This document shows, piece after piece, positions 802 through 42,531 of a stretch of DNA of 64,000 nt. The DNA comes from Hormiphora californensis (Eukaryota > Animalia > Ctenophora). The DNA lies in assembly GCA_020137815.1 (NCBI GenBank), contig CM035352.1, forward strand, positions 6,076,001-6,140,000. The letters are read 5' to 3'. How positions within the stretch are numbered: the stretch's first letter is position 1; the number at the start of each line of letters is the position of its first letter. The notes below the pieces were generated by a model, which was not told where the DNA came from, did no database searches, and saw only the letters and a program-made list of their open reading frames with translations. Made by a program: the position numbers and the translations under genes.

Positions 802-1229
802 TTATAATCCGTGATTATATACATACCAAGGTGTCAACATATAATATATATATATATTTATTGATTTTCCTGTTTTTTATTTAAATCAAGGAGGTTTGTG
901 ATATGTGTACCATTATAAATCAGATTATTATACAGTGGCACTGCGATTTACCGGAATCCCGAGGATACACGCATCTTGGTAAATCAGAGTTTTATATAAC
1001 ATACATCATTATATAACACACACAATGCAGCTGTATGTGTCTGGACAACTTACATCTGATGCTTCTAACATTTCCTGCAGGATCAATTACACGAAGACTT
1101 TCTCACACACATGCCTGGGGACAACTCTACAAGCTCCCACTAGACCTAGTTTATATAGGTTCTCTTTATCCTCATACTTTGTACTTTGTAGACGTATTTT
1201 ATACTTTCTTGTACTCGTCTTCTATTATC

Positions 1230-18400: not shown

Positions 18401-19542
18401 CTAGCCTTTCTTTTGAATGGTTCGGAGATCTTGGATGGCTTGCGTTGCTGACACTCTTTCTTCAGGGGGAGTGTTTCTTCTGCAATTTCGTAAACAACCC
18501 TTACTATACCTTTCAGGAACTGTTCTTCATTGTTGTCTCCGTTTTGGTTACAGTAATCGTGAAGCTTATCCCAGTCCATGTCGCAAAGTCTTGTCTTCAT
18601 GGGAAGGTAGTCCACGTTATGGACTTTAAATTTCCTGAAGGGGTCATTTTCTATCTTTTTCTCGGACTTCGTTTCCATTGGGTTGTAAGTCAGGGTGCAC
18701 TCTACTGCTTTGTGGTCTGACAGCCTGCTCTCTGTGGTTTCCACATTCGCAAAATAGTCAGGGGTGTTAGTGAGGACCAGGTCGAGAATATTGTTTCCTC
18801 TTGTGGGGGACAGAACCAGTTGCTCAAGGAAGTTTTCATCGATGAGCTCAAGGGTTCGGTGGTACGGACTTGCTTTGGCGGAGTTTCTGTCTGGGTGGCT
18901 GGTACACACCCAGTTCATGTGCGGAAGATTGAAATCTCCCATGAGGATTATCTCTGGAACCACTCCGTTTTCCTTAGACACAAAGTTGATCTCCTCCTGT
19001 AGTTTGGTTAGTGCGTTTGTATAAGAGGAGTCTTCAGTATCTGGTGGTCGATAGACACAGGCCAGAAATAGGTTTTGTTCTTCTGAGAAAGCTGTAACCA
19101 GGCTTGTTTGCCTATCACTCCAAGACAGCTGTCTGGTTATTGGTATTTCTGTGTTGACGTAGAGAAGGCATCCTCCTCCGATCTTGCACTCTCTATCAGC
19201 TCTTAAAACGTTATAACCTGGTACAGTTATCTGGGCGTCCGAGATATAGCTTTTTAGCCAGGTCTCTGTTATGCCTACAGCGAGGACTGGGGGTTGGTGT
19301 TGTTTTGGGGACATATACATCTCCTGGATGTAAGGGAGTTTCCACTTTGTTTCCCCACCCGCTGCAGGAGAAATGGATCTACAGTTTAGTAAAATGATCC
19401 TTGAGAGGGGTGAATAAATTGGTACATTGGTTGCTGCATCATTCCGCTTGGTAGGGGGGGTATGTCTGGGCTCATTTGCCCGTGATATTCCCCAAACATC
19501 GGTTTCATTGGGGGGTTCATTTCGTGCTTGTTCACTGTCCAC
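15484..19542 (-). pseudogene. LINE ORF2 (AP endonuclease plus reverse transcriptase), split by the insertion at 16165-17059
   Basis: APE motifs GITETWL, GDFNLP, LDLVL and SDH. RT motifs NYRPVSL, QHGFRK, DYAKAFD, GVPQGTVLGP and LADD. The C-terminal part (RSKLEYCCPLW, LSLQRRRER) resumes at DLG|IQLS. Confidence 0.93.
16165..17059. mobile_element. 895-bp non-autonomous TIR DNA transposon with an 8-bp TSD (superfamily unassigned)
   Basis: TIR CCCAGTGCGAACATTGTA / TACAATGTTCGCACTGGG. TSD TGTATCCC at 16157-16164 and 17060-17067. Confidence 0.9.
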
Positions 19543-20111
19543 ATCAGGTGGTTTAGTTGTCTGGCCTGGGCAGAAAATCCTTCCTTTACTTCTCTGACCA
19601 GGTCTTTCAGAAAATCCGCCGTTATGGCTGATTCCCGGGCTCTTATCGGCTCCTGGTTCTCAGCAACACCTGAGTACGATTTGGCTGTGGATTGCTCTGG
19701 TATGGTCTTTACCTCGGTGGCGGTTGATGCTGATTCGGTACTGTTTTTCGTAGCAGACGGTTGGGGTCCAAATCGTGTTCCCACTGTGTGAAAGAACTTG
19801 CAAGACTTTGGGTGTAGGCAAACTTTTTCTTCTGACAGTGATCCTCTGCAGATTTGTGGGTGAAGAAACTCACATTTGTAGCCTTTGTCGCAGCCGTTTT
19901 TCCCAAAGCCTCCAGTCCTGAGTTTTTTGCAGATCTTAGGGTGCTTTCCTTCACAAACTTTGCCACCACGCCTAATTTTTCCATTGATCCCGTGTTTGCA
20001 CCTACCATATTGCATAAAGTAGCGACAGTTCTCTCCATCTCCACTTACGCTGTCCTTGGCTTGGTTTTTAGCAGGGGTAGAAGACACGATGTCTTTGTTT
20101 GTAGGGCTCAT
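19386..20111 (-). CDS. LINE ORF1 with tandem CCCH zinc fingers
   Basis: CRYFMQYGRCKHG..CEGKHPKIC, CDKGYKCEFLHPQIC, CLHPKSCKFFH. Overlaps the start of ORF2. Confidence 0.8.
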   Translation of the reverse strand: MSPTNKDIVSSTPAKNQAKDSVSGDGENCRYFMQYGRCKHGINGKIRRGGKVCEGKHPKICKKLRTGGFGKNGCDKGYKCEFLHPQICRGSLSEEKVCLHPKSCKFFHTVGTRFGPQPSATKNSTESASTATEVKTIPEQSTAKSYSGVAENQEPIRARESAITADFLKDLVREVKEGFSAQARQLNHLMWTVNKHEMNPPMKPMFGEYHGQMSPDIPPLPSGMMQQPMYQFIHPSQGSFY

Positions 20112-23100
20112 TGTAGTGTTGGGGGGCAGGGGTTTCCGTTCCTCTGTTCTGGGTCGGTGGGAATAAGCACATATTCTGCCGTCAACAATAGTGGTTCCTA
20201 AGGCCTAATTTACTCAACAAACCGCGACGTCGGCAAAATGTTTGTGATATTATATCAGCTTGACATGTATTACACCTAAATCCTAATATACACGCTATAT
20301 ACGATGCACATCAAAACAGAGGAAGAGACTGAGAGAGAGATTATGAGTAATAAAGGACAACATACTGCAGTATTATATACTGCCCAACAAAGTCGCGTAT
20401 GTATAGTCAAAGAAGAAAGCCGCAGAAATAAATCCCATGGTTTTATAAAACATATTGCATCAAGCTATCCAATTAGATCTGGTATAAGCTAACCAAGAGT
20501 GCGATGTGCCAAACAAAACAAGACGTGTGTATTACACGTGCCACAATACCAAGCCATACATGAATCACAAGATCTATACAATATTATGATGATGAGCTGT
20601 TTGTGTGTAATTACCAGAACAAAAACTGAACTAATTTTTATTGTACCGTGGCTATAAATATTGAGTTGCGTGTGTGAAATTCGTGCTGTTGTGCCATACA
20701 CACATGAGTTCATCAATTAACCAGCACATGTAGTTGGCTCAATGCCATTCCATACGGTAATATGGTTGCTAAAAAAGGGAAGTGTGTATTGTAATTGTAA
20801 ATGAGTATGGATATTTTTAAACCATAATTAATTCTTGCTCATGCATGATTATATGTGTATCAAGCATGTATCTGTATGCAGGCTAGTTAAACTATATAAC
20901 CCTAAACAGAAGAAACGAATTAGTTATTACTCACCACAAAGATATTAATACGATTACCAATTTGTAAAATTCCTAACATCGAAAACTTTGGAAACACTAA
21001 TCAAGTACCAAATATACAATATTAAAAATGTCTTTGTTTGAAGGAGAAAACAGCATTACGCATTAAGAGAAAGATGCACCTGGGGTTACACAAGCTGTTT
21101 GAAGAAGCTGCAGCAGCGGCCGTAGTATAGTACTTGGTGAATCGTGTGTAGTAAAGCTCTGCCTGCCTACATTCAAAGAAGTTGTTCGTTAATGACGTGT
21201 AAAATAATACCATTGTTGCTTCTGACTGGCTCCCACCAGTGGATAGAACAATGACGTTTCAAAATACAGCTCTACATTGTACACACTGTGTACTACAGCT
21301 GCACTGTACAGTGTACACTCACTACACACTATATTTTGTTGTTATGTTCTAACCTTGGCCCTTGCCTAGCCCTCCCGGTAGAGCGCAGTATATTTTCAGT
21401 ACTCATCACACGCACGTGAGTCACCACAATGCAGTACATGGAATAGGTCGGCATACAAATAACCCAGACTGTGTTTCGCGGGCGGGGTGAGCTAAACCGA
21501 GCCTAGCTAGGCAAGTATTGTGGATGGTGGATGGCATATTATTCAGTATATATTGAGATCTGGGGGATATATTATTATAATAGTGGGTATGTTTCGAATA
21601 TTCCCCGAATATTCAGTGTGTGACAAAAACAGCCACATTATAGTGGAACAAATAAAGGTGGAGCGGGTCAGGTCGGATTGACGATCTCATGAGTCATGAT
21701 ATTTTACCACATGGATTATGGAAGTAAGAACACACTTGATTCTACCCATTCTATTAAATGTATTACAGTTGGACCCCGATTTACCCCAGTAAATCGGGGC
21801 CTGACTGTATAGGGCCGGGATACATCAGGGCACTGTATGAATAACATAATAGTGTATAGAGGAGACGTGTGTTCAAGCCAAAAAGCAATCTCATGCAGCA
21901 AGGGAGAGAAATGAATGCTCCAGGGTAACATAGTGTAGACCCTTTTGTTCTCTCTTTCTAAATACTGCTCTTGAAAGCTTTTAGCCCTTTCTCATATACA
22001 TATTCTACCCTGAACCGCATATGTCTCTTCCCGGCCCTTTTTGCTTTATATATTTCTCTCTTTCCCCAATCCCCAACCCTCTCCATATTTTATCCCCTCT
22101 CCTTGATCCATCCACTCTATTTCAACACAGTGCAGTTTTCTCGGAAATGACGCCCCCTTTCTTTCAGGATAGGTGAGCTGACACACACTGGTGCACGTTG
22201 AATGCAGCTGGCATTATATTAAGGGACCAACTTACAAAAGAGTGGCAGGGTATTATATTAACCATTTAAGCACTCGGGTATGTTTGTATCAAACTACCAC
22301 GGTCGCTTGTAGTGGGAAAACGGTAATGGAAAACGGAGATACAGTAAGACGACGCGCAACTGTGACCAATCAGGCCAATCATAATGTTTAAAAAACCACA
22401 TTATTTTCTTACGTCAAACAATCACGTGTGTGTAGGTGGATCAAACCACTTAAATAAGTAGAGCTTATTATCATGCATAGTTAAATCTGAATATTATGTG
22501 TCGACACTCGACATGAACTGCCGAAAAATCTCGAATGCTATATTGCTATACCTACTAACGTTGTCGAGCAATGCAAATGGAAGTCCCCGGGCGGGGAAAA
22601 ATCCTAAAATGGGATCTGATCACTTAAGATTGGTTTAAGTTCTAACAAGACATATTCAGATCGAGTTGAGTTTATTAGACCCCGCCTTCATCAGGAACCC
22701 AGATATATTATATGTGATAAAATAATCTGAAAAGATCTAGTAGTACAGCTTTTTTCAACAAATGTCTCATCTCGTAGGAACACTTGCTGTACGATCTGTT
22801 TGGCGGCTCCGAAAGTCAAAACAATCTCTCATATTGAGTCAAACGAGGCGGTGCATGAAAGTTGCCAAGGAACACGTCTTGTAAGTTTTAACGAAGGATC
22901 ATAATCAAATAAAAATACTCACTAAAACTTATTGTTTTGCATGCACTAGCACTGTATAATTCTGTTCATTCCATATTAATCAGAAAAACAGTAAACACGG
23001 TGAGTTATAAATGGGGCTGTGGCATTGCCACCACAAAATAATGTATTTCGAATGGCTCATTCCCCAAATACAGTAAGCATTCTCAATAAATATTTAATAA

Positions 23101-25349
23101 TGCATTTTCTGTCCTTCAATAACTTTCATCCGCTATATTCTATTAGCTTGGATATAATACGCTTAGTATTAGTTGACAAGATATACATACCTAAAACTTT
23201 TCGTCTATCGTATTTTTTCCCCGCCCGGGTGAAGGCCGAAAGCCTTCATCAGGATGCCTTTTGCAAAAAGGCATAGGGGTTTAGAAATCTAAACGGATAT
23301 AGTGACTATGTGTAGCAAGTCAGCTCTCTTGTCCCGTTTCAGGTTGCGAGCGGCAACATGTAGCAACTAGAGCCGTGCACACAACAACCTGCTCCTTCAT
23401 AAACCACTTCATTGAAACGTTTTCAGGAAATATGTAGCATGCAATTCCGCAATTTGGCGTGCAATTTAGTGAAACTAAAACACAAGGATTTGTTTTATAC
23501 TGTTTGCGTGATCTATAAATCATCCGATTTGTCTGTCCCGCCTTGATGTTAGGAATGAAAGGTTGGCGGGGAAACATAGCATTATGAAATTGAAACATAA
23601 TGCATTTATTCTTGTTTTCGATTTGATTTTAAGCATTTTTTCAGAATTTTTTATCGTCTAGAAATATGTGCAAAATAGCGGTGTAGGGGTATACTGATAA
23701 ATGAGTGGTGCAATATAAAAATTGATACTGTAATATCTCCGGTTCCTTATGAGATACAAAAACCGTTTTGGTAGCATTGGAGACGCAGTGAGTGTGTCCA
23801 GTAATCCCAGTGCTGACAATATCAGTCACGTGCATGTGCATTGTGCCTTCTATGTGGTGAAACTTAATGTGTAGAACAATCTTTCGGGCAGACTGTTCAG
23901 GCTCTCCTTTCGAGCCCCCGTAATCCCCGGAGCCGTGTATCAGAATTTGGTGGCATTGACACCTGAGTGAGATCAAGGTCGTGCAGCGACCGAGATCGAT
24001 CTCACATACAGGTGTCTGCTCCGTTATTGATTTTAGAATATTTTCAAAAACCCGACTGCAAGGGACTACTGAATCGATTTGCATCTCGTTTGTTGCTCCT
24101 GGCAGATAATTGTCTCTAGTTTTACGGAAAATACCTGCGAGTATCAGCATTTGAGGAATAGTGGATCAAAATTGACGCTAAACATTTAAGCAATTCTTTG
24201 AAAACCTGGCTGCAAGCTCCTACTCGGTCCTGGGACAATCTGCGGGTCCTGGGTGAATTGTCATGGCCTTGTGAATATGGGAAAATACCCGCCGATTCAT
24301 CACGATGCGAAATGAGGCGATAATTGACGTCAGCTAAAAAGGCCTCCTAAAACGATCTGTCTCGGGCGATTTGTGTTGTCACTGCTGACAAACGAGCTTT
24401 ACATGCGCGCACACGTGAGTTCTTGCTCTCAACGGAGCGGGATCTTATTATTCGCGGAGGTTACAATGGATCCAATATCAGAATCATATGAAGCAGCTCA
24501 TTTCCCCCATTTTTTCAACGTCTCGACTGCATCACGAAGTGTGATATGCATGAGATCTCAAGCCCTCCATGAGATCCATGAGATCCATCCATGAGATATA
24601 TTCTTTTGACCACCAGTGATGAACATCTAGTGAAACTATACAGGCACTATGCTGCCGTGTTAAACCATGTGTGAACTATTATGTTGCTAGGCAGCCGTTC
24701 ATGTGAAGCAGATCTGCAAAAATCAGGCGGCTGAACGTTAAACAAACGTTAAACAAGGCAACTACCGCACTGCAATTCTAACGAATGAAGTGAAATATTA
24801 GGTGAGTAGATAACTACTTTCGAGACCAGCTCGACTCCTTCACGATCTTCCTTCCTCACTCGCACTAGTTGGTGTCACAAAGTTGGTGACCAAGCACTGT
24901 CTGGCACCACGACCCCATCTGAAAATCAAATGGGGTATGGTGCCGCCATACAGACCAAGCATGGCCAACGAGGCCCGCGAAGCGGGCTGAATTTATAACA
25001 TTATAATTACTCTCCATTCATAATTTCCGGCCTGGTACTTTCCGTTCATGAGAGAGAAAATGAACCTGATGACGAAATAGAAGAGATTATATTAGGGTGA
25101 TTCATAATGATTTTCAATCGCTCTTTCTGAGACACTGGTGACCAAAAATTTTTACAGGATCAGCGATTAGTTTGGACAATTTTGGAACCCATCAACCATG
25201 TTTGAAGATCAGGATGGTTTTACGTAACCGGTGACAGACAAGTCAGGCTTTTTTGCGGTCTACGTGCACTAGGGCTAGAATAACCTATTTTGGGGATATT
25301 TGAGGAAAATCAAGTTCATCCGATTTTCACCCTTGATTTTGTGGGCTAT

Positions 25350-25695
25350 AGTAGTTGGAATTGTAGGAAACGAGCACAGGCAATGACGTCACAGGTGATG
25401 ACGTCACTGTTGTGACGTCATCCCCTGTAACGCCCCTACTACACTTCGAATAATTACATAATTATGTTTAATTATGCATAATTATGTAATTATCCAATTT
25501 ATGCAAAATTCGCATATTTTCCCCCCTCCTCAGGTGTACCATACTAACACCGTGCTAGCACCGTACTAGCAATATGCAATGTAATGTATGTACCCTACTA
25601 GTACCCTACTGTACCCTACTAGTATCCAACAGTACCCAACTGTACCCTACTAGTATCATACAGTACCCTACTAGTACCCTACTAGTACCCTACAA
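25350..25695 (+). repeat. Polinton left TIR with subterminal GTACCCTACTA-type tandem repeats
   Basis: Near-identical reverse complement of 41781-41923 plus about 41040-41316. Confidence 0.93.
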
Positions 25696-25772
25696 TACCA
25701 CATAAGGAAATAAAAAAAAACACTTGATTTTTTTAATTTGTATAAACCAATATTTAAATATTATATTATACA

Positions 25773-26350
25773 TTAAACTAATATAATGGAATTATGACGA
25801 CTGTCTTTATTTTGCCATCCCATAACTGACACCGGTTTTCCAGTTTTAACAGCTTTATCACAAAAGAATGCCATTGTCTCCGTCTCATTTCGAATGGTAA
25901 TTCTAAACTTGTCGAACCGTGGGAGGACTCTGATAACATCCCACTCGCCTGAAAATATTAAATAAGTTGAAAAAAATCATTTCTTTGTAAATATTCCAAG
26001 TAAATTTCCTACAAACCTAGTTTGAAAGTGTATGACCTACCATCTATTCGCTTGAAGGGTGTCGGTGAGGGACACACACAACATTCATCCTCTGCAATAA
26101 ATCGCCCACAGTTTTTGCAGCTGGAGAAGTCAGCTTTAGCAAGATTCCGAATCGCCCAAAAAGTGTTCGTAAATTCCACGTAATCGAAACTAACTCGATC
26201 TCCAACTTGGGGCACATAACTTGCCTCTGGAAAAACTCGAAATTTGAAAACTTTTAACCAGAATCCTATCTCCGAGTAGCCAGTAACCAACCATCCACCA
26301 TATCTATCACCCACGGGTTGAGGAGAGATGCTTTTGACGACCGCAAACAT
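25773..26350 (-). CDS. Polinton two-exon gene, 161 aa, beta-rich with a central Cys cluster (exons 26350-26041 and 25948-25773)
   Basis: GTAGGT donor at 26040 and TTTTCAG acceptor ending at 25949 (92-nt phase-1 intron). The join reads ...CKNCGRFIAEDECCVC..FKRIDG|EWDVIRVLPRFDKFRITIRN...VSVMGWQ..LV*. Confidence 0.7.
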
Positions 26351-26661
26351 AACGACAAGATTGGAAATGAATTGAAATTGTGCGTTGGCTATGATATACT
26401 TGAACACGATGCTCGTTCACGCTAAATTTTAAACACCTTCATTTCCGATTGACGTCTTTTTTTCACATCTAAGGTGTTGTTTGATCCATATCGTTTTCTA
26501 TTGTTTTCTATTGTTATCTATTGTAATCTATTGTCTTCTATTGTTAAAACATAGAAAATAGATACGCTGATCCAGGATGCTGAAAGCACACCTGTTGACT
26601 TATCTGCACCGCTATTTAGATCAACTCAAAATCAAATTTTCGTTACAATTTGCAATTCCCA

Positions 26662-32426
<5,765 letters not shown>

Positions 32427-32453
32427 TAAGCATTTTTTATGTTTCGAATAATT

Positions 32454-32891
32454 TTATATTTCATTTACAATATCAGTCTTATTCATTGTTAAATCAATAT
32501 CATCCAGTACACGGCTCAAAATGTCCTTCTTTACACGTCTCCGTTTGGCTGGCTTAGTCTTTGGCATGCTTTTGTCATGATGTGCTAAATAATAACTCCC
32601 AAAATAAATTGAGGAAGGAGTAGCAGATGCTAGAAAACTTGATATGTATGTCATCTTTCCCTCTTTTCCATCTTCCCCCTTCAGCAGAATTCCAGGGTTT
32701 GACATTATCTCATCACGTGCTCCTACGAAATACATGTTAAACTTGTCAAGTAGTGACTGCTGTTCACATTGGTGGAGTAAGGGGCAGGTGAAGTGGTGAC
32801 CGGGACAATCCTTTCGGGCAGCTTCAATTATCTTGCTTGTCAACAAAGAAACTGTTCGTGCTAGAATTATTTCCAGTTGGGCGCTTGTCAT
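32454..32891 (-). CDS. Polinton hypothetical protein (145 aa)
   Basis: ATG-initiated ORF with a CxGxxxxCPxxxQC cluster and a basic NLS-like KPAKRRRVKK. Confidence 0.65.
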   Translation of the reverse strand: MTSAQLEIILARTVSLLTSKIIEAARKDCPGHHFTCPLLHQCEQQSLLDKFNMYFVGARDEIMSNPGILLKGEDGKEGKMTYISSFLASATPSSIYFGSYYLAHHDKSMPKTKPAKRRRVKKDILSRVLDDIDLTMNKTDIVNEI

Positions 32892-32978
32892 GGTTACTGG
32901 CTAGAAATATGATAAATTAGTTATTGACGGAGGGGGGGGGGTTGGAGGGCGTGGGAATAAACACTACAATATAACAGT

Positions 32979-33425
32979 TTAATGAGATTTCAAATATTCT
33001 ATCATCAATTTCAGCTTTTCTTGGCTGCAATATCGAGCCCTGTGAGGGTAAGAGCATGCTGACCATCCAATAAGTTGTTTTGCCTCCACACGTCCAGCCA
33101 GATCAACAATCCTTTGTGTTGGTAGAATAGCAGAGAGGTAATCGTAGGCAATATGTCCATAAGTGTAAACAACTTCTTGCTCGCTCGCCTTTATCAGTCT
33201 GATGAGATCCAATTCGGTGATAGAATCAGCTCCAAAGTCTCGCGGGTTAACAACTCCTAGCTTTGAAACACTAAAGCGACGTTGTTCTGTAGGAAGATAC
33301 GGTTGATGAATTTAGTGTGTAAAGACATCAAGTAATGCTGCACCGTTTGCTGTTACAGCTGCGGCTTCTAACGGGTAGAAGGTACCATTGAACACACCGT
33401 CTAGACAAATAACAGTGAAACGCAT
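32979..33425 (-). pseudogene. Polinton small DnaQ/DEDD-fold-like protein with an in-frame TAA at 33312-33314
   Basis: MRFTVICLDGVFNGTFYPLEAAAV...FTH*IHQPY...VVYTYG...CSYPHRARYCSQ is a single 149-codon frame with one internal stop. Family resemblance judged by eye only. Confidence 0.55.
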
Positions 33426-33501
33426 AGTTTAAAGGTAAACGAGAAATGAAGACTATAACTAACAAACATGACTCACACAAATAAATCACGTGACTAAATG
33501 C

Positions 33502-34536
33502 TTAATGCTGATTAGTTGTATTTAAAAAGTTTATTGTGTCAGATATCACGTTAAAAATGTGTGAAAAAACTTCTCTGTTCTCGTTAATAGTGGATTTAAC
33601 TCTCTCCAAGGATACATTCTCCAACCTACTAATTAAATCTCGATCAGCGTCAGTTAACAAATTCCTTTGTGCAACTACAATTGGTATGACACCATATCGC
33701 ATACCAATAAACAGCTTTTGCAAGGATACAAGCAATCTTTTCGAGCGCAAAACAAGGTCAAATTTATTCTGTCTAATTAACTCCTTGATTTTGAGAAAGT
33801 CCTTAATGCTGGCACTGTTAATGATAGCACTGGAAAACTTGTTAAATGTAGGATCGTTAAACTTGGTTTCAAATTCTTCTCTCTGTTTTTGTAATAATTC
33901 AACTGTCTCTTGGTATCGGGATAGGTTTTCTTTACACTCTTTGAGCTTGTTTGTATATCGACGTTCAAACACACGAGCATTCTTTTCGCTACGAGTTAGT
34001 TTAGTGGTGAGTTGGCGGATCCGTGCCTTATAATAACGCAATCGGCTATTAGTGTAATGGGGAGGAGTTCCTCTTCGTCTGTTGGACGGTTCTGGAGATC
34101 CAGCCAAATTTCTTTTCCTGTGTCGTGGGTAAGGTACATCTGGCGAAGAAATTTCTTCACTATTTGACTCGTCAACTTCTACACTGCGCTGTCTAGAGGG
34201 TGGGGTAAGTGATCTGCTCCTCCTCCTACCACGTGGTGGAGGTGAGTCATCAGAGTCATCTGGCAAAGGAACATCATCCCCACCTACTCTACGTCTGTTA
34301 GCCGGACCTGGTGGTTCAGACGTTCTTCTTTTTCTACCTCTTTTAGACGGGTCTCTCCAAGAGCTGGGCCGTTTATCAATACGTTCATCTCCCCAATTTT
34401 CCTCTCGCTTTCTTTTGGGCGGAAATTCATTTTGTACTGGTTGAATTGCTACAACAGGTGTGTGATGTTGTGCTCTGTGTTGAAACAGCTCAACAGTGGT
34501 TTCGAACTCCTGTTCACACTCGTTGCAAGTTGGCAT
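33502..34536 (-). CDS. Polinton protein with an N-terminal C2H2 zinc finger, Arg/Pro/Ser-rich region and coiled coil
   Basis: 344-aa ORF starting MPTCNECEQEFETTVELFQHRAQHH. Divergent from the integrase. Confidence 0.8.
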   Translation of the reverse strand: MPTCNECEQEFETTVELFQHRAQHHTPVVAIQPVQNEFPPKRKREENWGDERIDKRPSSWRDPSKRGRKRRTSEPPGPANRRRVGGDDVPLPDDSDDSPPPRGRRRSRSLTPPSRQRSVEVDESNSEEISSPDVPYPRHRKRNLAGSPEPSNRRRGTPPHYTNSRLRYYKARIRQLTTKLTRSEKNARVFERRYTNKLKECKENLSRYQETVELLQKQREEFETKFNDPTFNKFSSAIINSASIKDFLKIKELIRQNKFDLVLRSKRLLVSLQKLFIGMRYGVIPIVVAQRNLLTDADRDLISRLENVSLERVKSTINENREVFSHIFNVISDTINFLNTTNQH

Positions 34537-34587
34537 GGCTATAAATAAGCTTGGAAATTATAATTTCTCTATTTATACCATAATACC

Positions 34588-35646
34588 ATGGTGATAGCGG
34601 AATTGTACACTGATCCCAACCTCTATGGTGCGTTTGCAGGACGAGAAACGTTTTATAGAGCTCTTAAAGAACGTAATCCTGCTATTACACGTGGTAAAGT
34701 TAATAAGGCTCTTCGTGCATCCGATGTTTACACACTACATAAGCCAGTGCAAAAACCACGCAAATACCGGCGAGTGTATACAAAAGGGATTAATTACCTG
34801 TTTCAGATCGATTTATGCGACATGTCTAAGCATGTTAAGGATAACAACGGCTACAAATGGGTCATTACATGCATCGATACCTTCTCAAAAAAGTTGTGGG
34901 CGTTTAAAATAAAGGATAAAACAGGTGCAAGTGTATTGAAAGCATTGAAACCGTTAATTGAAAAGGAGAGACCTGTTAAAATTGAGACTGACGGAGGTGG
35001 AGAGTTTAAAAATAAAGGTTTTCAAGCGCTACTCGCCAAGCATAAAATAACCACTTATACAATTAACTCACCCCGGAAATGCTCCATTGTTGAGAGGGTG
35101 AACCGATCGCTTAAACAGAGAATGTATAAAGCTTTCACCTCTCGAGGTTCACACCGTTGGATTGACATTCTGGATAAGTTGGTTCTGGCATACAACCGAT
35201 CATTTCATCGAGCTATAAAAATGTCACCGCTCGAGGTTACAAAAAATAATGAGGCTGCTGTGCGTGCAACATTGTTTCCTAAACTAACCCCTCCCCTACC
35301 ACCCAAACTAAAAGTAGGTGATACTGTGCGTGTAACTGCTAAAAAATCTACTTTCCAGAAGGGATACGAACAGGGTTGGAGCCACGAGATTTTCACAGTC
35401 TCAAGTATAAAAGCTACTACACCTGTAACCTTCTCAATCAAAAACATCGGTGGTCAAGTTATTCCAAGATCATTCTATTCATCTGAAATACAGCTGGTGG
35501 ACAAGTCTAACAACATTTGGCGTGTTGACAGAGTGATAAAGAAGAGGAAATACCGTAACAAGGTACAATATCTGGTGAAGTGGAAAGGGTATCAAGATAT
35601 ATTCAATTCGTGGGTCGACCACAAGGATCTTTTTTCACTTGGATAA
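34588..35646 (+). CDS. int: Retroviral-like (rve) integrase with a C-terminal chromodomain
   Basis: YTLHKP, FQIDLCDM, IDTFSK, ETDGGGEF, SIVERVNRSLK (D,D,E intact), YNRSFHRAIKMSP, KGYEQGWS, YLVKWKGY...NSWV. Confidence 0.96.
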   Translation: MVIAELYTDPNLYGAFAGRETFYRALKERNPAITRGKVNKALRASDVYTLHKPVQKPRKYRRVYTKGINYLFQIDLCDMSKHVKDNNGYKWVITCIDTFSKKLWAFKIKDKTGASVLKALKPLIEKERPVKIETDGGGEFKNKGFQALLAKHKITTYTINSPRKCSIVERVNRSLKQRMYKAFTSRGSHRWIDILDKLVLAYNRSFHRAIKMSPLEVTKNNEAAVRATLFPKLTPPLPPKLKVGDTVRVTAKKSTFQKGYEQGWSHEIFTVSSIKATTPVTFSIKNIGGQVIPRSFYSSEIQLVDKSNNIWRVDRVIKKRKYRNKVQYLVKWKGYQDIFNSWVDHKDLFSLG

Positions 35647-35647
35647 T

Positions 35648-36247
35648 ATGCCTATTAAATTCCTAGCTAATCACAACACTATAGTGTTTGGACAAACAGG
35701 AGCTGGCAAGACACAATTCATTTTACGAGTCATTAAGGAACGATTAATTGAGCCTTTTCCTAAAAATATATTCTATATGTACGGTGTGCATCAAAGCTTT
35801 ATGATGCAATATCCAAACATTAAGTTTATACATGGCCTTAACTTCGAGGAAATGGATACTTCGGAGCCTAGTGTGCTAATTATTGATGATTTGATACTGG
35901 ATACGAACAAGGAAGTAGCTTCCGCTTTCATCATGGGTAGTCATCATCGGCAGATAAGCTTATTTTTTATCACCCAAAACCTCTTTCCAAATTGTGACAC
36001 CTTCCGTCTCATGAGTGCAAATGCTCACTACTATGTTCTGTTCCACAACCAGAGAAACTTTAGACAGGTGCATACACTAGCCCGACAAATATTTGTAGGT
36101 CGGGATGTTCATCGCATAACAGCAGCATATAAGAGGGCTTCTGATAAACCACGGGGCTTCATTCTCCTTAGCTTCTCACCGCTGCTACCTAAAGAGCTAA
36201 CTGTCATCACGGACTATTGGGAACCATGGATCTCCGTCTATCTCTAA
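35648..36247 (+). CDS. A32/FtsK-like genome packaging ATPase
   Basis: Walker A GQTGAGKT, Walker B LIIDD, GSHHRQISLFFITQNLF. ATG at 35648. Confidence 0.92.
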   Translation: MPIKFLANHNTIVFGQTGAGKTQFILRVIKERLIEPFPKNIFYMYGVHQSFMMQYPNIKFIHGLNFEEMDTSEPSVLIIDDLILDTNKEVASAFIMGSHHRQISLFFITQNLFPNCDTFRLMSANAHYYVLFHNQRNFRQVHTLARQIFVGRDVHRITAAYKRASDKPRGFILLSFSPLLPKELTVITDYWEPWISVYL

Positions 36248-36522
36248 AACAACATCGGTATATTTTACAAACTCTAGTCAAGAAATCTCCTAAAATGCGT
36301 ACAGTTATGATACAAAATGCGCCTACACAGCTAGTATCTTTCTTCAAAGCTCTCTCCAAACATGCTTCAAGGGAGCACAAATACAAGAGATTTCTATCGC
36401 TTTTCAAAAAGTTGAAAGGAGCTCCTTCATCCCGTATAAAAGCTTTAATGACTACTAGTAAGGGCATTTCGTTTCTTAAATCAGTGCTACGCAATGAGTC
36501 GCTATTTGCTCCTTCCAGCTGA
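36217..36522 (+). CDS. Small basic Polinton protein downstream of the ATPase
   Basis: 101-aa Lys/Arg-rich ORF overlapping both neighbours, in the usual post-ATPase position. Confidence 0.65.
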   Translation: MGTMDLRLSLKQHRYILQTLVKKSPKMRTVMIQNAPTQLVSFFKALSKHASREHKYKRFLSLFKKLKGAPSSRIKALMTTSKGISFLKSVLRNESLFAPSS

Positions 36523-36784
36523 TAAAGGAGATGCTAGAGAACTAAAACTACCCGCCAACCTTGTTGTAGCTCCAACAAATAATAATGTGAACTTGTTACG
36601 CTCTCTGCTTGCATCATTTGAAAAGGCAGGAATTAGCAAGAATGAGTCGGGAAACCTGTGTTACAATGATACTGAAACGAGCGTGGACTATGACAAGTTT
36701 GTAAGTGATTGTACAAACTTATGTTTTCATAGCGAACTGAATGATGTTTATGATATTTTGCGTGTCAATGGTTTTATGTTTTAA
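36494..36784 (+). CDS. Polinton hypothetical protein (96 aa)
   Basis: ATG ORF tightly packed after the previous ORF. Confidence 0.6.
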   Translation: MSRYLLLPADKGDARELKLPANLVVAPTNNNVNLLRSLLASFEKAGISKNESGNLCYNDTETSVDYDKFVSDCTNLCFHSELNDVYDILRVNGFMF

Positions 36785-36800
36785 AACTAAAAGTCGTGTT

Positions 36801-37253
36801 TTATTGAATTGATTGAACTAAATTACGAACAATATAATCATTACGGTAAATATTAGTATAGATAGATAAAAAGTCTCTCACACTCATACCACTTAACATT
36901 GCATATACAAAATGGCAGCAAAAATATCCACAGCTCGTAGTACCAGGTAGTTGAACTCCTCTTCTCACATGTTTGCAAGACTAATTGTAACGCTTTGCTA
37001 GAACGTAAAAATTTATCGGTAGTGTGTGGTGGCTAGGAGATCTTCCAAAAGAATCGAAAAACACTGCGTGTCCATTGTTAATAAACCAAGCACACCAGTG
37101 TTCGCCAGGTTTGTCATGGGTATCGGTATTTAGGATAAATGCATATTTTTTTCTTCGGGAGCGGATTGGAGTGCAAGCAGGGAAAGTTCCAATGTAGGAG
37201 TTACGAGTGTATGGGTTCTGGAAAAGGAAACCATTTAGATCCGAAGTGTTCAT
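36801..37253 (-). pseudogene. Adenain-like maturation cysteine protease with an in-frame TAG at 36981-36983
   Basis: NTDTHDKPGEHW...FFDSFG lies before the stop. The same frame continues SCKHVRRGVQLPGTTSCGYFCCHF...RND to a TAA at 36801. Confidence 0.9.
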
Positions 37254-38548
37254 TCTACAATATTCACTGTTCTGTCTCCATTAATAGTTATCAACCTATC
37301 ATACAAGGCGTATACAATAAGCACGAGATCTTCGGTTGCATTAGAACCAAGATCAATTTCCAAACGTGTACTGGCATCATATTGAGGGCTTATATAGCTG
37401 TGAGGTACAGTTCCTTCTCGATCAGGGGAGAGACTTAGTCCAACAATGAAATTTTGCTCAAAATTCTCACTGTTTACTAGACAACGTCCATGTAGGTCCA
37501 TACCGAGACTTTTGTACAATTGATGCAAGTATGGTGCATAATCGTTATCATCGCCTGGTTCTAGAGCATCGACAAAATAGGGCTTACCGTCACAGTAGAA
37601 CTGGAACTTTGTGAAGGGTATGAATGCAAAGGGATTGCTATTATGTGCTCCTTCAAAACTAGCGACAGACTGTACACAAAAGAATGCATGATGCGGTAGT
37701 TTTCCGGGGAAAATGTGATTTAAACGCAATACCTGACTGGCTTCAGGAATTGGTCTAATAATAAGTTCTGGTTTGCAAATGTGATAGGGAGCAGGTTCTT
37801 TTAACAAGCGTGACTCAATAAGTGAGAGAAAGGGCGAGGCTGGCCTGATAAACTTTGCTCTCAAGTGCACGCTGTTAAGATGGATCCTATACCCTTGCTG
37901 CTTTGACATAAGAAGAAAACCATCATTGTTTTTGCTTAGCGTAATCCTTAGTGGTAATCCAGTGGGAAGTGCTTTAGAACTATTTAATAAGGGACAGTGT
38001 AGCTTTCCAACAGTAGTAATCTGCTTGGATTTGCTAATCTTTTTTGCTCGTTCTTCTGCACCCTTATTCTTTATATTACTTCCGCTAAATATCATAGAAT
38101 CATCACGTGTTTTGCCAGAGTCCATGACAAACATTTGAGTAGCTTTGAGGAAGTCATCGCGGTTAGGATCTGTGCTGAGAATACTGTTGAAGTAAGACTG
38201 ATAGGCATAACTATTTCTCATACTTTGTGTCATGTCAACACGATCAGCAAGAACGATATCCACCAGCTCCCATAATGCATTTGAAAAATTATTGATAATC
38301 GAGACATTATCTACATCTGTTAACTCTGCATCTCCCTTCATTACTTTGAATTTTGTTTCAATGTCAATTTCCCACAACATTCCGGTTTGTTGAGGAGGGA
38401 TATTAAACGTGATGGGGCCATTCAGTATGGAATTTGTCGGGTAAACTTTAACCAAATAGTTTTCTTCTATCGACACTCGCGTGCTAGGACGTTTCCAGAG
38501 CATGAGTTCGGAAGAAATCGCTTGTCCAAGTCCGGAAAATGTTTTCAT
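37250..38548 (-). CDS. Major capsid protein (double jelly roll)
   Basis: 432 aa. N-terminal SELMLWKRPSTRVSIE..YP...GPITFNIP and internal NNFSNALW, YAYQSY and NPFAF match Polinton MCP patterns. Lies next to the protease. Confidence 0.88.
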   Translation of the reverse strand: MKTFSGLGQAISSELMLWKRPSTRVSIEENYLVKVYPTNSILNGPITFNIPPQQTGMLWEIDIETKFKVMKGDAELTDVDNVSIINNFSNALWELVDIVLADRVDMTQSMRNSYAYQSYFNSILSTDPNRDDFLKATQMFVMDSGKTRDDSMIFSGSNIKNKGAEERAKKISKSKQITTVGKLHCPLLNSSKALPTGLPLRITLSKNNDGFLLMSKQQGYRIHLNSVHLRAKFIRPASPFLSLIESRLLKEPAPYHICKPELIIRPIPEASQVLRLNHIFPGKLPHHAFFCVQSVASFEGAHNSNPFAFIPFTKFQFYCDGKPYFVDALEPGDDNDYAPYLHQLYKSLGMDLHGRCLVNSENFEQNFIVGLSLSPDREGTVPHSYISPQYDASTRLEIDLGSNATEDLVLIVYALYDRLITINGDRTVNIVE

Positions 38549-38868
38549 AGTTTTGCTCTGCGTGGAAGTGAACTTTGTTTCCGACGTTTTCTTGGTTTAG
38601 GTTGTACGTAGGAGTTGATTAAGTTTTCTGCTCCAGCTGCGGCTGCTCGTTTTAGTCCTGTCTGTAAATGAGGAACTGCAGCTTTACCCATGCCCTTTAT
38701 AGCCGATCCAAGTATAGGTAGTGCACCGCGGAATAATGACGCAAGAAAGCTACCAATTCCTTCTCCGTTTTGTGTGTAAACATAATAACCATCTGAATCA
38801 AAACCAGATCCATGCTGGTTAATAATGCGAGAATATGCTGCAAGATTCTTGTAGTTTACTGATTCCAT
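38545..38868 (-). CDS. Small core / membrane-active virion protein
   Basis: QHGSG and QNGEGIG motifs, amphipathic helix SFLASLFRGALPILGSAIK and a basic tail, as seen in Polinton small virion proteins. Confidence 0.75.
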   Translation of the reverse strand: MESVNYKNLAAYSRIINQHGSGFDSDGYYVYTQNGEGIGSFLASLFRGALPILGSAIKGMGKAAVPHLQTGLKRAAAAGAENLINSYVQPKPRKRRKQSSLPRRAKL

Positions 38869-38907
38869 TACAATTGTGAAATGAGTTGGGTTTAAAGTTG
38901 TTTAGAT

Positions 38908-39669
38908 CTATTTATAGTGTAGAGGACGCATTTCCAAAGTAACAACTGTGTCAAAGCTGTTGGAGAATGGTACAAATTTCCCATTGAAGTCCAAAATCGA
39001 CAGAGAGATATCGCTAAACTCTCGAATTTCTACAGGAACATAAGTTGGGTTCCTAAACTCAAAAAATGCATACCCAGGTTGATAGTCGAAGGGACACATG
39101 CATAATATTCTTGATTTTTTGCCGTTGATGAAACTGTTTTCAACAATGTTGAGGTACAGACAGCCCATAATTTGGCGGTTAACGATCTTACCATCGGTAT
39201 TTTGAACCATCCAAACTCCTTCCTCTTCCTCAGCGCCAAGAAACGTCAAGAGTGAGGATGGGACAATAGTAGCATAGTCAGGAGCTATAATTCTTGTCAC
39301 TTTATTGTTAGTTTCAAGTTTTAAACGTCCACTAAACTCTCTCTTTGTGAAATAGGAATTTACAGCCTCCAATAAAGCTTTCAACACGTCTGATCGAGTA
39401 TCATAATGAGCAGCAGAAACAGTGATTGTATGAGTTCCACCAAATAATACACCGTCATACTTTCCCTCTTTTTTTGCCTTAATCATAGCAGTAACATCAA
39501 AATATATCTTTATGACATTGTTCTTTGCATTTACATTCTGCAATTCTCCATATGCAATCGACTTGACAGCTATACCCATTTTTTCTCCTAATTTTACGGG
39601 ATCCAATGACATGGAAAGTTTGGCGGGATTTGCATGAAGCCCACCAGCAATAACAAAGTTACGAAACAT
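38908..39669 (-). CDS. Minor capsid (penton) protein
   Basis: C-terminal LYLNIVENSFING..RIL...FRNPTYVPV...FSDISLSILDFNG..VPF is the Polinton penton pattern. ATG at 39669. Confidence 0.85.
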   Translation of the reverse strand: MFRNFVIAGGLHANPAKLSMSLDPVKLGEKMGIAVKSIAYGELQNVNAKNNVIKIYFDVTAMIKAKKEGKYDGVLFGGTHTITVSAAHYDTRSDVLKALLEAVNSYFTKREFSGRLKLETNNKVTRIIAPDYATIVPSSLLTFLGAEEEEGVWMVQNTDGKIVNRQIMGCLYLNIVENSFINGKKSRILCMCPFDYQPGYAFFEFRNPTYVPVEIREFSDISLSILDFNGKFVPFSNSFDTVVTLEMRPLHYK

Positions 39670-39728
39670 GATTATGATTGAAATATGTGCTTTTTCTTTT
39701 ATATACGACCCGACAATCACGATTTTTT

Positions 39729-40064
39729 TTAGTAATTGAATAAAGGAAAGAAAATAATGAACATAACAAGAACTTTCATGTACAGTCGCTCATGTTCTTT
39801 GTAAAAGTTGACAAGTCTAAAAGTAATGAGATATAATTCTGCTAGAGTCCTACAACTAGAAAAATATTGAATACAGTCGCTTCTCACTCCAGAAAGAGTA
39901 TCTCTTTTAATGAGACAGTGGTTATTCTGCGAAGATTGCATATGGATGAGCGTTTCGTTCTTTAGCCGTATAAACTCGTGCTCGAATGTACGATCGATAT
40001 CACAATCTTTAATTCTGGCAACTTTTAAGGTCCTTGCTGCGATATAGTATGGTAGAGCATCCAT
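39729..40064 (-). CDS. Polinton hypothetical protein (111 aa) with a hydrophobic C-terminus
   Basis: ATG ORF starting 3 nt after the glycoprotein stop. Confidence 0.55.
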   Translation of the reverse strand: MDALPYYIAARTLKVARIKDCDIDRTFEHEFIRLKNETLIHMQSSQNNHCLIKRDTLSGVRSDCIQYFSSCRTLAELYLITFRLVNFYKEHERLYMKVLVMFIIFFPLFNY

Positions 40065-40067
40065 GTA

Positions 40068-40571
40068 TTAAACCCTAGTTTCAGTCGGAACAGAACTATA
40101 ATTGAAAAGGTTTCGTAACTCTTGTCTTCTCAGCAAAAGAGGTGCTAGTAACGGGAAAATAATAAGAAGGTAAAACAAGTACAGCATAGAAGTTTGTTTC
40201 TCTTTATATACTGATACATGAGACTCAAAATGTGAATTTGAAATCAATGCATTGAAACCGCAGAATATGGTTATGTTCAACGGTTTTTCTGCCCTCGCAT
40301 ACTCTCCTTCACTCATAACTAATTCCATCATAGTCCCGTTTACAGTACGATCGTGCCAATTAAAAACAAAGCTATGATTTAACGGAGAAGAGTATAGTTC
40401 AGAACCAAATAATCCTCCTTCCAACAACTGTAGTACATGCGTTGATTCGTTGAGATAAAGGTAGCCATACGTTTCATTTTCTCCTCCAATCAGCATGTAG
40501 TTTTCACAGAGCTCTGAGTTGAATACAATGGAGAAGTTTAAAAGTGCAACATGAGCAAAGCTGATCATCAT
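40068..40571 (-). CDS. Putative type I membrane glycoprotein (167 aa)
   Basis: Hydrophobic N-terminus, multiple N-x-S/T sequons (NET, NES, NHS, NGT, NIT), TM segment MLYLFYLLIIFPLLAPLLL followed by RRQ, and a short tail. Confidence 0.7.
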   Translation of the reverse strand: MMISFAHVALLNFSIVFNSELCENYMLIGGENETYGYLYLNESTHVLQLLEGGLFGSELYSSPLNHSFVFNWHDRTVNGTMMELVMSEGEYARAEKPLNITIFCGFNALISNSHFESHVSVYKEKQTSMLYLFYLLIIFPLLAPLLLRRQELRNLFNYSSVPTETRV

Positions 40572-41039
40572 GAAATGAGACGGTAGAATAAAAAACTCAT
40601 GTCTATTCACTTTTCGCGTTGCTTACAGGTTTCTATAGCTCAACATATTTTGTTTGCCAATGAGTTGATAACGTTAGCATAAGGTAATGGTGTCTTTGAC
40701 ATCTTTTCAGCAACGTACAGCTATAGCAAAAGACCCTAGGTTTCTTTGACCTATTGGAATAAAACGATAACAAGGCGAAAGAGGACATATTAGATCAATA
40801 TTTGTGAAAAAATGGTTGGTTAAATTGTTTCACGTGTTTATTAACGCGTTGCCATTTAACCAACATAACGCTTTGTTTTCTCATTTCCAGTTTTTTTATT
40901 TTCTGTTGTGCGTCGCCAGTTGTTTTTTTTGCAGCTCATGATCCCAAAGAGATAGCACCTCGATTACACACGCATTATATGGGCTACCTTTGCGCTTGCC
41001 AGCGCAGTGATGTATTGTATAGAATATTTAGCATAACTG

Positions 41040-41923
41040 TATGGTACTGTATGGTACTGTAGGGTACTAGTAGGGTACTGTTGGGTATTAGTAGGGTACT
41101 GTAGGGTACTAGTAGGGTACTAGTATGGTACTGCAGGTTACTAGTATGGTACTGTAGGGTACTAGTAGGGTACTAGTAGGGTACTAGTATGGTACTGCAG
41201 GGTACTAGTAGGGTACATACATTACATTGCATATTGCTAGTACGGTGCTAGCACGGTGTTAGTATGGTACACCTGAGGAGGGGGAAAATATGCGAATTTT
41301 GCATAAATTGGATAATAATAAAGGGTTTTTAGTATACCGCTCAGTCCAGACAGGGCTGGATCATTGACATGAGTCCAACACTGCCCAGATTCAGAGCGGT
41401 ACACCAAGGTTGCTAATATCCTGACTCACTTAGAACAAAATAGACACATCTACTGATTATATACTCCAAAAATTGAAAAAAGCCTAAGGAAAAACGGGAC
41501 ACATAAACTTCTGGAAAACAACTTGTTAGCTGAAATTAAATAACAGACTATAAATCGAGATAAAGAAACAAAGCCAGTAGCCCTCATGCTACAAACAAAA
41601 GTCAGCCCAACTGCATCAGCAGCCCCCCTGCTATAATAGCCCTAGGAAGGGAAATAGTAAGGAATTGCTATGCTAGAATTGCCTGCTCGACACGGGAAAG
41701 GGGAAGGATAGGACACCTCCGATTACAACTCTGAAGCAGATCCGAATGCCTCCTGAAACAACCTTGTCTTTAGTCTTGTGTAATTACATAATTATGCATA
41801 ATTAAACATAATTATGTAATTATTCGAAGTGTAGTAGGGGCGTTACAGGGGATGACGTCACAACAGTGACGTCATCCCCTGTGACGTCATTGCCTGTGCT
41901 CGTTTCCTACAATTCCAACTACT
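41040..41923 (-). repeat. Polinton right TIR, interrupted at 41317-41780
   Basis: Reverse complement of the left TIR, with about 2 differences seen in the core. Confidence 0.92.
41317..41780 (-). mobile_element. 5'-truncated L2-like LINE 3' end inserted in the Polinton right TIR
   Basis: Minus strand begins TRLKTRLFQEAF..* (LINE ORF2 C-terminal motif). It ends in a TACCGCTC...GAGCGGTA stem and a TTATTATTA tail. TAAT is duplicated at the junctions. Confidence 0.7.
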
Positions 41924-42531
41924 GGCTATTTCTAGAATTCAGTCAAAAAGCCCTTTTTTCACTTTGAATTACTGTGGCTCGGGACCTAGTCGGTCTTTTA
42001 TCAAGATTTAGCGCTCAAAATATGAATTAAACCATGCTCTATATGACCCTGAAGTTATTTGGTGGTTTTGGGTATCTTAGAAGGTCTAAAATTGAAGTTG
42101 AAAAAAGTCGTGCAAATACGAGCAAATTTTTCTGGCTTTTGGGGCCATATTTCGAGCAATTATTAGCCTCCTACTCCACTCCCGCAACTTTTTCGGCTCA
42201 AAATTGGTTGTTTGCGATGACAACAGCTAATAGAATGAACTACTTCATGAGCAAAATAGGTCGTTTTCCAAAATTGTTGCTTGCATTTTGACGATTTTTT
42301 GGAAAGTGAGACGGTAGTATGGTCAAACACTAGAAAATGGGGTGTAGCCTTGGGGAAAAGTTCGTCAGATCTTTACCAAGGATGTTAGGATACCAAAATT
42401 GTGTCAGGAACTAGGTACTATAAAAATTTTATTGCCCCGATGAACATGAAGCAACTAAATCGCAATTGAAAATCATTATGAATCACTCTAATATATTCTA
42501 GATCTGGTTAATAAAGCTGGTTATAAATTAT

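What the first reader, a model, noticed from the sequence alone, without database searches (positions are those of the whole stretch)
25350..41923. Complete, recently inserted capsid-encoding Polinton with a spliced replication module and an unspliced virion module
Seen: perfect TSD, near-identical TIRs and a full morphogenesis gene set. All 16 confidently modelled introns fall in the two leftmost divergent genes. The integrase, ATPase, MCP, mCP and other ORFs are continuous and tightly packed. Inference: a polintovirus lineage whose replication genes depend on the host spliceosome while late genes avoid it, which would provide a possible early/late or latency switch. I cannot confirm novelty without a literature and database search.
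Basis: partly seen in the sequence, partly recalled or inferred. Interest (0 to 1): 0.8.

Follow-up and report, generated by a model that had tools for sequence, protein, structure and literature searches.

The report
Intron-rich polymerase in comb-jelly Polintons
A virus-like transposon in what is likely a comb-jelly genome has a DNA polymerase gene split by 15 predicted host-type introns, 11 at the same positions as in a distant relative, while its capsid gene is uninterrupted, so its copying enzyme likely depends on host splicing although such genes are usually described as intron-free.

Summary
The element is a real 16.6-kb Polinton/Maverick with a 6-bp target-site duplication and AGTAGT ends, in a pleurobrachiid ctenophore (a P. 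bachei gene model is identical over 151 aa). The 16 introns are confirmed as models: 15 GT-AG introns give a stop-free 1,214-aa pPolB, and one lies in the divergent ORF. Eleven of 14 comparable pPolB intron positions recur in a distant Polinton (L047; pPolB 46%, MCP about 32% identical), whose capsid family includes a Mnemiopsis gene. The introns are therefore old and inherited with the element. MCP folds as a double jelly-roll and is unbroken in both. 'Complete' is overstated: the protease and an exonuclease-like ORF carry in-frame stops, and the right TIR has a 464-bp insertion. The early/late switch is unsupported: no spliced RNA was found, L047's integrase has an intron, and intron-free ORFs may still be trans-spliced. 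Spliced pPolB also occurs in 9 of 42 clean metagenomic loci, in several separate intron sets, and this scan noted it before on other DNA (unchecked notes). The papers I could search call the core genes intronless. Verdict: new variant of a known kind.

The parts
25344..25349 (.). left target-site duplication (6 bp)
   Evidence: identical to 41924-41929
25350..25699 (.). left TIR, AGTAGT end, inner 10-11-bp tandem repeat
25773..26350 (-). ORF1, about 160 aa, two exons (26350-26041, 25948-25773), one predicted 92-bp GT-AG intron; Cys-rich, no known family
   Evidence: relatives: P0222 (47%) stops at the junction, P0223 and P0228 run on across it; P0225 is a P. bachei model
26662..32426 (+). pPolB, 16 exons, 1,214 aa; predicted introns 26829-26970, 27175-27279, 27628-27711, 27895-27985, 28181-28259, 28415-28542, 28950-29062, 29176-29654, 29843-29931, 30059-30143, 30347-30442, 30550-30646, 30880-30960, 31224-31358, 31532-31847; N-terminal C2H2 finger
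   Evidence: Pfam DNA_pol_B_2 and Endonuclease_7 pieces below cut-off; zf-C2H2 below cut-off; P. bachei model P0080 is spliced at the last three junctions
32454..32891 (-). ORF of 145 aa, unknown; resembles L047 12690-13235 by eye
32979..33425 (-). exonuclease-like ORF (label recalled from a DEDD-like motif; no Pfam hit), broken by an in-frame stop at 33312-33314
   Evidence: homologue continuous in L047
33502..34536 (-). 344-aa ORF with an N-terminal C2H2 finger and coiled coil
   Evidence: (below cut-off)
34588..35646 (+). retroviral-like integrase with chromodomain, no intron
   Evidence: Pfam rve 7.5e-14, Chromo 8.7e-9
35648..36247 (+). A32/IVa2-like packaging ATPase
   Evidence: below cut-off; 46% to L047 ATPase
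36226..36784 (+). two small overlapping ORFs (98 and 96 aa)
   Evidence: the first has a weak match in L047
36801..37253 (-). adenain/Ulp1-like maturation protease, broken by an in-frame stop at 36981-36983 before the Cys motif
   Evidence: (Peptidase_C5 weak on the 3' piece; Peptidase_C48 weak on the L047 homologue)
37250..38548 (-). double-jelly-roll major capsid protein, 432 aa, no intron
   Evidence: AlphaFold2 pLDDT 87.5; Foldseek to iridovirus, PBCV-1, Sputnik and mavirus MCP, E 5e-16 to 1e-13
38545..38868 (-). 107-aa basic ORF whose stop overlaps the MCP start
   Evidence: weak matches in L023 and L047
38908..39669 (-). putative minor capsid protein, 253 aa (assignment inferred from position and size)
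   Evidence: Atlas 0.98 to unnamed viral and cnidarian clusters; single-sequence model uninformative, pLDDT 38
39729..40571 (-). two accessory ORFs (111 aa; 167 aa with hydrophobic stretches)
41095..41923 (.). right TIR, interrupted by the insertion below
41317..41780 (.). 464-bp insertion in the right TIR, flanked by a 4-bp duplication; no ORF over 63 codons; no other copy in the window
41924..41929 (.). right target-site duplication

Best explanation
This is a young, slightly decayed copy of a likely ctenophore Polinton lineage whose DNA polymerase gene is split by 15 predicted spliceosomal introns, most of them likely gained once long ago and inherited with the element, so host splicing would be required to make the polymerase. 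Shown: the boundaries, the gene set, the open exon chain, shared intron positions in a distant element, faster change inside an intron than in its exons, and an uninterrupted MCP. Inferred: the element is transcribed in the nucleus by host enzymes (PMC4405056, passage) and the host spliceosome removes the introns, several of which cut catalytic motifs. Also inferred: introns could settle in the long, separately promoted pPolB gene but rarely in the compact blocks, where ORFs overlap and are probably co-transcribed. No regulatory switch is needed to explain the asymmetry.
For: 15 of 15 introns are GT-AG, donor +3 is A in 14 of 15 and acceptor -3 is a pyrimidine in 15 of 15. Each modelled intron stops or shifts the frame if retained (which used a different first intron). 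Eleven of the 14 window introns within L047's span are at the same codon and phase: 9 exact by alignment (P 3e-20, or 2e-8 if only 5% of sites are allowed), plus 2 checked by hand. pPolB identity is only 46% (488 of 1058), and the homologous introns show no nucleotide likeness. Window and L047 pPolBs are sisters (SH-aLRT 97) nested among single-ORF relatives (quick tree). A 77%-identical relative (P0081) reads through in-frame inserts at two more of the same junctions. A divergent copy in run X9 has 15 of 25 substitutions and all 15 gap letters inside one 105-bp intron, and 6 of its 10 exon changes are at third positions. L047's MCP is 75% identical to a Mnemiopsis leidyi model. MCP is uninterrupted in the window, L047 and L023, and a 2,855-bp contig of run X5 spans protease to mCP without an insert. 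Junctions fall in motifs such as YIDAN|NLY, NNALF|K and FHNFK|GYD.
Against: No spliced read or contig was found. The three RNA or RNA-guessed runs gave only short pieces, one of which runs across intron 2 unspliced, and X14 laid nothing on the compact module. Introns 1 and 2 lack profile support at high penalty, and intron 1 was placed by hand. The sister relation rests on a quick tree without bootstrap; the careful search did not finish, and the C-terminal tree left it unresolved. Some 'intronless' relatives lie on 4-5 kb contigs that could be transcripts. L047's host is not shown.
Confidence: 0.72

Rival explanations
1. Splicing switch: pPolB introns act as an early/late or latency control, with replication licensed only where they are spliced, while virion genes bypass the spliceosome.
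For: The asymmetry is strong (P about 4e-8) and recurs in L047 (15 introns in pPolB, 1 in integrase, none found in MCP). pPolB introns arose in several separate sets among metagenomic loci.
Against: No RNA evidence of regulated retention. The splice sites look like ordinary constitutive sites. The intron-free block includes non-structural genes, and L047's integrase has an intron. A Mnemiopsis model joins an mCP-like N-terminus to MCP residue 86, which is either a prediction artefact or splicing in the virion block. Trans-spliced leaders were on 56% of Iso-Seq reads in a related ctenophore (PMC8527503, passage).
Confidence: 0.12
2. Recapture: the polymerase gained its introns while it sat as a resident or domesticated gene in an ancestral ctenophore genome and was later picked up again by an active Polinton.
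For: It explains the one-gene concentration in a single step. Modules appear to have been swapped: the window's MCP is closer to other marine MCPs (about 50%) than to L047's (32%), although their pPolBs are sisters.
Against: ORF1 and L047's integrase also have introns. Each lineage has its own pPolB introns (3 in the window's, 4 in L047's), so gain or loss went on inside mobile elements. Other clades have their own pPolB intron sets.
Confidence: 0.13
3. Artefact or decay: the 'introns' are post-insertion insertions, introner copies, or a misassembly.
For: Three introns are mostly microsatellite, the copy has other lesions, and introners are reported inside Polinton-like elements of dinoflagellates (10.1101/2025.03.18.643946, first third read).
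Against: Positions are shared across deep divergence. The introns are unlike each other apart from CT repeats. Independent DNA runs cover both modules, and both element ends share one TSD.
Confidence: 0.03

Closest known systems
Polintons/Mavericks of animals (class Polintoviricetes; 'adintoviruses'); PMC8097293 and 10.1101/2024.03.18.585575, passages read
   Same: Size 16.6 kb, 6-bp TSD, (AGT)2//(ACT)2 ends, TIRs, pPolB, RVE integrase, ATPase, protease, DJR MCP, putative mCP.
   Different: Core genes are described as intronless in intact vertebrate elements (PMC8097293) and in a nematode element (10.1101/2022.07.12.499685). Here pPolB has 15 predicted introns, and the gene order differs from the vertebrate two-module layout.
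Nematode Mavericks with intron-bearing cargo (10.1101/2022.07.12.499685, passages read)
   Same: Intron-containing genes near one end of the element.
   Different: There the intron-bearing genes are host-derived cargo and the core genes are intronless; here the core replicase is the spliced gene.
Introner-bearing Polinton-like elements of dinoflagellates (10.1101/2025.03.18.643946, first third read)
   Same: Spliceosomal-type introns inside Polinton-like elements.
   Different: Those are repeated introner transposons, mostly inserted after integration. Here the introns are unlike each other and their positions are conserved between distant elements.
Adenoviruses (recalled, no call)
   Same: Related nuclear virus with pPolB, protease and DJR capsid that depends on host splicing.
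   Different: As recalled, adenoviral polymerase and late ORFs are mostly continuous and are reached by spliced leaders. This shows that intron-free ORFs need not avoid the spliceosome.

Membership tests
Polinton/Maverick | 6-bp target-site duplication | tested here: met
Polinton/Maverick | TIRs with (AGT)2 or (AG)3 end motif | tested here: met
   right TIR interrupted by 464 bp
Polinton/Maverick | protein-primed family B polymerase | tested here: met
   spliced alignment covers 7-1200 of 1202 profile positions, score 1255; polymerase motifs at junctions
Polinton/Maverick | terminal-protein and vOTU domains at the pPolB N-terminus | not tested
   no fold of the N-terminal exons was run; a Cys after the third junction fits vOTU by recall only
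Polinton/Maverick | retroviral-like integrase | tested here: met
   Pfam rve above cut-off
Polinton/Maverick | A32-like packaging ATPase | tested here: met
   Pox_A32 and Adeno_IVa2 below cut-off; matches to ATPases beside pPolB in other loci
Polinton/Maverick | adenain/Ulp1-like protease gene | tested here: met
   present but broken by an in-frame stop in this copy
Polintovirus | double-jelly-roll major capsid protein | tested here: met
Polintovirus | single-jelly-roll minor capsid protein | tested here: inconclusive
   Atlas 0.98 to unnamed clusters; model pLDDT 38
Polintovirus | virions or free linear genomes | not testable with these tools
   only contig-level runs were available
'Intact' Maverick as defined in PMC8097293 | all core ORFs intact and intronless | tested here: not met
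   15 pPolB introns; protease stop
Introner-generated introns | introns similar to one another or to repeats elsewhere | tested here: not met
   only a CT-repeat match among the 15 window introns, no match to the window flanks; no genome was held

The most novel reading that the evidence does not exclude
A ctenophore-wide Polinton clade has kept at least 11 spliceosomal introns in its replicase since before cydippid and lobate comb jellies split. It uses them as a host licence (for expression, escape from silencing of intronless transcripts, or a host-range lock), while its overlapping capsid cistrons are resolved by spliced-leader trans-splicing, so one small virus would use two different splicing routes for its replication and virion modules.
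Probability: 0.2. Interest if true: 0.82.

Novelty: new variant of a known kind. Interest (0 to 1): 0.6.

Why it matters
Polinton core genes are described, and searched for, as single ORFs. One cross-eukaryote survey required tBLASTn matches of 650 aa and pPolB ORFs of 900 aa (10.1101/2023.08.22.554363, passage), a filter that this gene (longest exon 193 codons) would fail, so whole lineages may be missing from host-range and phylogeny estimates. Conserved intron positions give a new character for dating and tracing these elements, and indicate long nuclear, Pol II-dependent residence in one animal phylum. The two modules of one element also form an internal control for asking why some genes gain introns and others do not.

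Tried and rejected
No whole genome was held, so copy number, empty sites and introns in all genomic copies were not examined. RNA: of 21 runs listed, 2 were RNA on record, with shares of 0.06-0.07. Laying X14, X15 and X20 on 26945-29200 gave 2, 3 and 1 short records and no splice joint; X14 gave nothing on 31850-41030. This absence is no evidence either way. The one joint seen (X9, DNA, 28956 to 29055) lies within intron 7 and fits a diverged intron, not intron loss. Two scans of viral contigs confirmed no relative (0 of 8 and 0 of 88 stretches). Pfam named neither MCP, mCP nor ORF1, and the Atlas gave ORF1 only hits of 0.80 or less. The mCP model was too poor for a fold search. The careful pPolB tree did not finish, so only SH-aLRT values are available. 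The MCP searches were limited to 0.55-1.75 times the query length, so split MCP genes could not appear. 59 of 79 and 62 of 74 hits cover at least 95% of the query, but 16 of 79 and 2 of 74 carry inserts of 13 aa or more that I did not examine for read-through introns. The alignment's first intron (26732-26945) was rejected in favour of 26829-26970, which keeps the ATG and zinc-finger frame. An alternative genetic code for the two stops was rejected: the same codons end other ORFs, and runs X10 and X5 differ from the window at both places. Depths were not used as copy numbers.

Full report
Boundaries. The element runs from 25350 to 41923, with the same 6 bp on both sides and (AGT)2...(ACT)2 ends, the end motif and TSD length given for Mavericks (PMC8097293, passages). 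The outer 143 bp of the TIRs differ at one site. The right TIR is then interrupted by a 464-bp insertion (41317-41780) with a 4-bp flanking duplication, after which the match resumes into a tandem-repeat tract (200 of 223).

Host. The last pPolB exon is 100% identical over 151 aa to EukProt Pleurobrachia bachei model sb/3465864, and the best MCP hit is another P. bachei model at 80%. Runs under two organism labels hold 68-99% of the sampled words (10 of 21 rows). The host is therefore a pleurobrachiid ctenophore; I did not determine which species. No whole genome was held.

Gene set. Integrase with chromodomain (Pfam above cut-off) and an A32/IVa2-like ATPase (below cut-off). The 432-aa ORF folds confidently (pLDDT 87.5) and matches iridovirus, PBCV-1, Sputnik and mavirus double-jelly-roll capsids. 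The mCP assignment is only likely. Two genes are broken by in-frame stops: the protease at 36981-36983, before its Cys motif, and the ORF at 33425-32979, at 33312-33314. Runs X10 and X5, from other studies, differ from the window at both places, so the lesions look private to this copy. The family looks young, but this copy is not intact.

Introns. A spliced alignment with a profile of 47 full-length pPolB relatives gave 15 GT-AG introns, no stops and no frameshifts. Thirteen are stable at all four penalties tried, and the opposite strand scores 28 against 1255. With the first intron set to 26829-26970 the gene starts at ATG 26662 in a zinc-finger frame, and all 16 exons are open (1,215 codons). 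The P. bachei model is spliced at the last three junctions. ORF1 has one 92-bp intron; one relative stops at that junction and two run across it. Uniform placement over 4.1 kb of spliced-gene and 7.8 kb of compact coding sequence would give this split with P about 4e-8.

The introns are old. The metagenome scan kept the best 80 of 167 loci. L047 (13.9 kb) and L045 (99.6% identical to it) hold a pPolB 46% identical to the window's, with 15 introns in L047. Eleven of the 14 window introns in its span are shared: nine exactly by alignment (0.06 expected, P 3e-20), one directly before FIDS in both, and one N-terminal site with colinear flanks. Three are absent from L047, two of which appear as in-frame read-through inserts in the 77%-identical P0081; four are specific to L047. 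L047's MCP is only 32% identical to the window's but 75% identical to a Mnemiopsis leidyi model, which points to, but does not show, a ctenophore host. In a quick tree of 975 columns the window and L047 are sisters (SH-aLRT 97) inside two starred clades of single-ORF relatives. Gain on their common stem is the simplest reading, with the caveats of no bootstrap, a midpoint root and an unresolved C-terminal tree. A divergent copy in run X9 has 15 of 25 substitutions and all 15 gap letters in the 105-bp intron 2, against 10 substitutions in about 290 exon bases, 6 of them at third positions.

The asymmetry is real but not clean. MCP is uninterrupted in the window, L047 and L023. A 2,855-bp contig of run X5 spans protease to mCP with 78 differences and 3 gap letters. 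59 of 79 and 62 of 74 MCP relatives cover at least 95% of the query, though those searches cannot see split genes. L047's integrase, however, has an 89-bp GT-AG intron, and the intron-free block includes non-structural genes. The MCP and protease start codons overlap the upstream stop, the ATPase starts one base after the integrase stop, and none of the three has the TATA-like box seen before four other ORFs. These are probably downstream cistrons that need reinitiation, leaky scanning or splicing. Trans-spliced leaders were on 56% of Iso-Seq reads in Hormiphora (PMC8527503, passages). Intron-free ORFs therefore do not show independence from the spliceosome.

RNA. Only two weak RNA holders and one guessed RNA run were available. 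They gave short records and no joint, and one record crossed intron 2 unspliced and may be DNA. Splicing is predicted, not shown.

How common. Of the 80 loci, 42 had a clean pPolB stretch of at least 300 profile positions. Nine of the 42 had two or more 70-300-bp GT-AG introns, 21 had none, and the other 12 had one or atypical ones. The sets differ between clades, so pPolB has gained introns repeatedly. Earlier notes of this scan (13 findings held the search words, 8 shown) describe spliced pPolB genes with one to six introns, or longer runs, in other genomes; they are unchecked. None was returned for this sequence, and no finding held the word ctenophore.

Literature. Ten searches were run. 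Passages read: PMC8097293 (no introns in intact vertebrate elements), 10.1101/2022.07.12.499685 (core genes intronless, cargo with introns), 10.1101/2023.08.22.554363 (900-aa ORF filter; no mention of ctenophores in the main text), 10.1101/2024.03.18.585575, PMC4405056 (nuclear, host transcription) and PMC8527503. PMC8502044, PMC12220804, 10.64898/2026.07.28.741278, PMC5718144 and PMC6431247 showed nothing on spliceosomal introns in core genes in the passages returned. I read the first third of 10.1101/2025.03.18.643946 (introners in dinoflagellate elements). I found no description of a multi-intron pPolB with conserved positions, nor of ctenophore Polintons. I did not see Kapitonov and Jurka 2006, Pritham 2007, Repbase entries or any supplements; Repbase or the survey's extended tables may already list such elements.

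Verdict. The element is a member of Polinton/Maverick and a new variant by gene architecture. The observation largely holds, 'complete' does not, and the switch is an untested idea (0.12). The solid result is an ancient, inherited set of pPolB introns in a probably ctenophore-bound clade that ORF-based surveys would miss. Interest 0.6.

Noticed in passing
window 40982-41019: A roughly 35-bp motif containing a short hairpin is matched by very many contigs with unrelated flanks (summed depth 3,400-60,000 in the last bin against about 100 elsewhere). It looks like the end of a high-copy host repeat inside the element.
   Followed up: no
window 28839-28842: In DNA run X9, deep contigs stop at this place in pPolB exon 7 and one continues with 112 unrelated letters, suggesting an insertion in that individual's copy.
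   Followed up: no
window 39641-39675 and 34982-35017: Short matches from long unrelated contigs in runs X2, X5 and X10, plus P. bachei MCP models at 80, 77, 61 and 44% identity, point to several further Polinton families in the host.
   Followed up: partly
window 34537-34587: A 51-bp divergent intergenic stretch has TATA-like boxes on both strands between the zinc-finger ORF and the integrase; similar boxes precede mCP and the 107-aa ORF, but not MCP, protease or ATPase.
   Followed up: partly
L001, L009, L011, L015, L016, L018, L062, L063: Other pPolB loci carry different intron sets (649/739/827; 508/573/658/717/827; 788/949; 605/765/952 in profile positions), mostly unlike the window's; 952 phase 1 is shared with L011.
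   Followed up: partly
P0288 (Mnemiopsis leidyi model): The model fuses about 97 aa of an mCP-like protein to MCP residue 86 onward: an artefact, a deleted copy, or splicing in the virion block.
   Followed up: partly
window 51514-53147: Perfect 814-bp inverted repeat with a 6-nt spacer; a second one of 564 bp at 98% lies at 60030-61465.
   Followed up: no
window 15484-20204 (-): LINE-like retrotransposon (endonuclease and reverse-transcriptase-like ORFs, label by recall), with a gap between the pol ORFs.
   Followed up: no
window 1017-1466 and 7659-8195: Duplicated short ORFs with a hydrophobic leader and three or four cysteines, like small secreted peptides, within dispersed direct repeats.
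   Followed up: no
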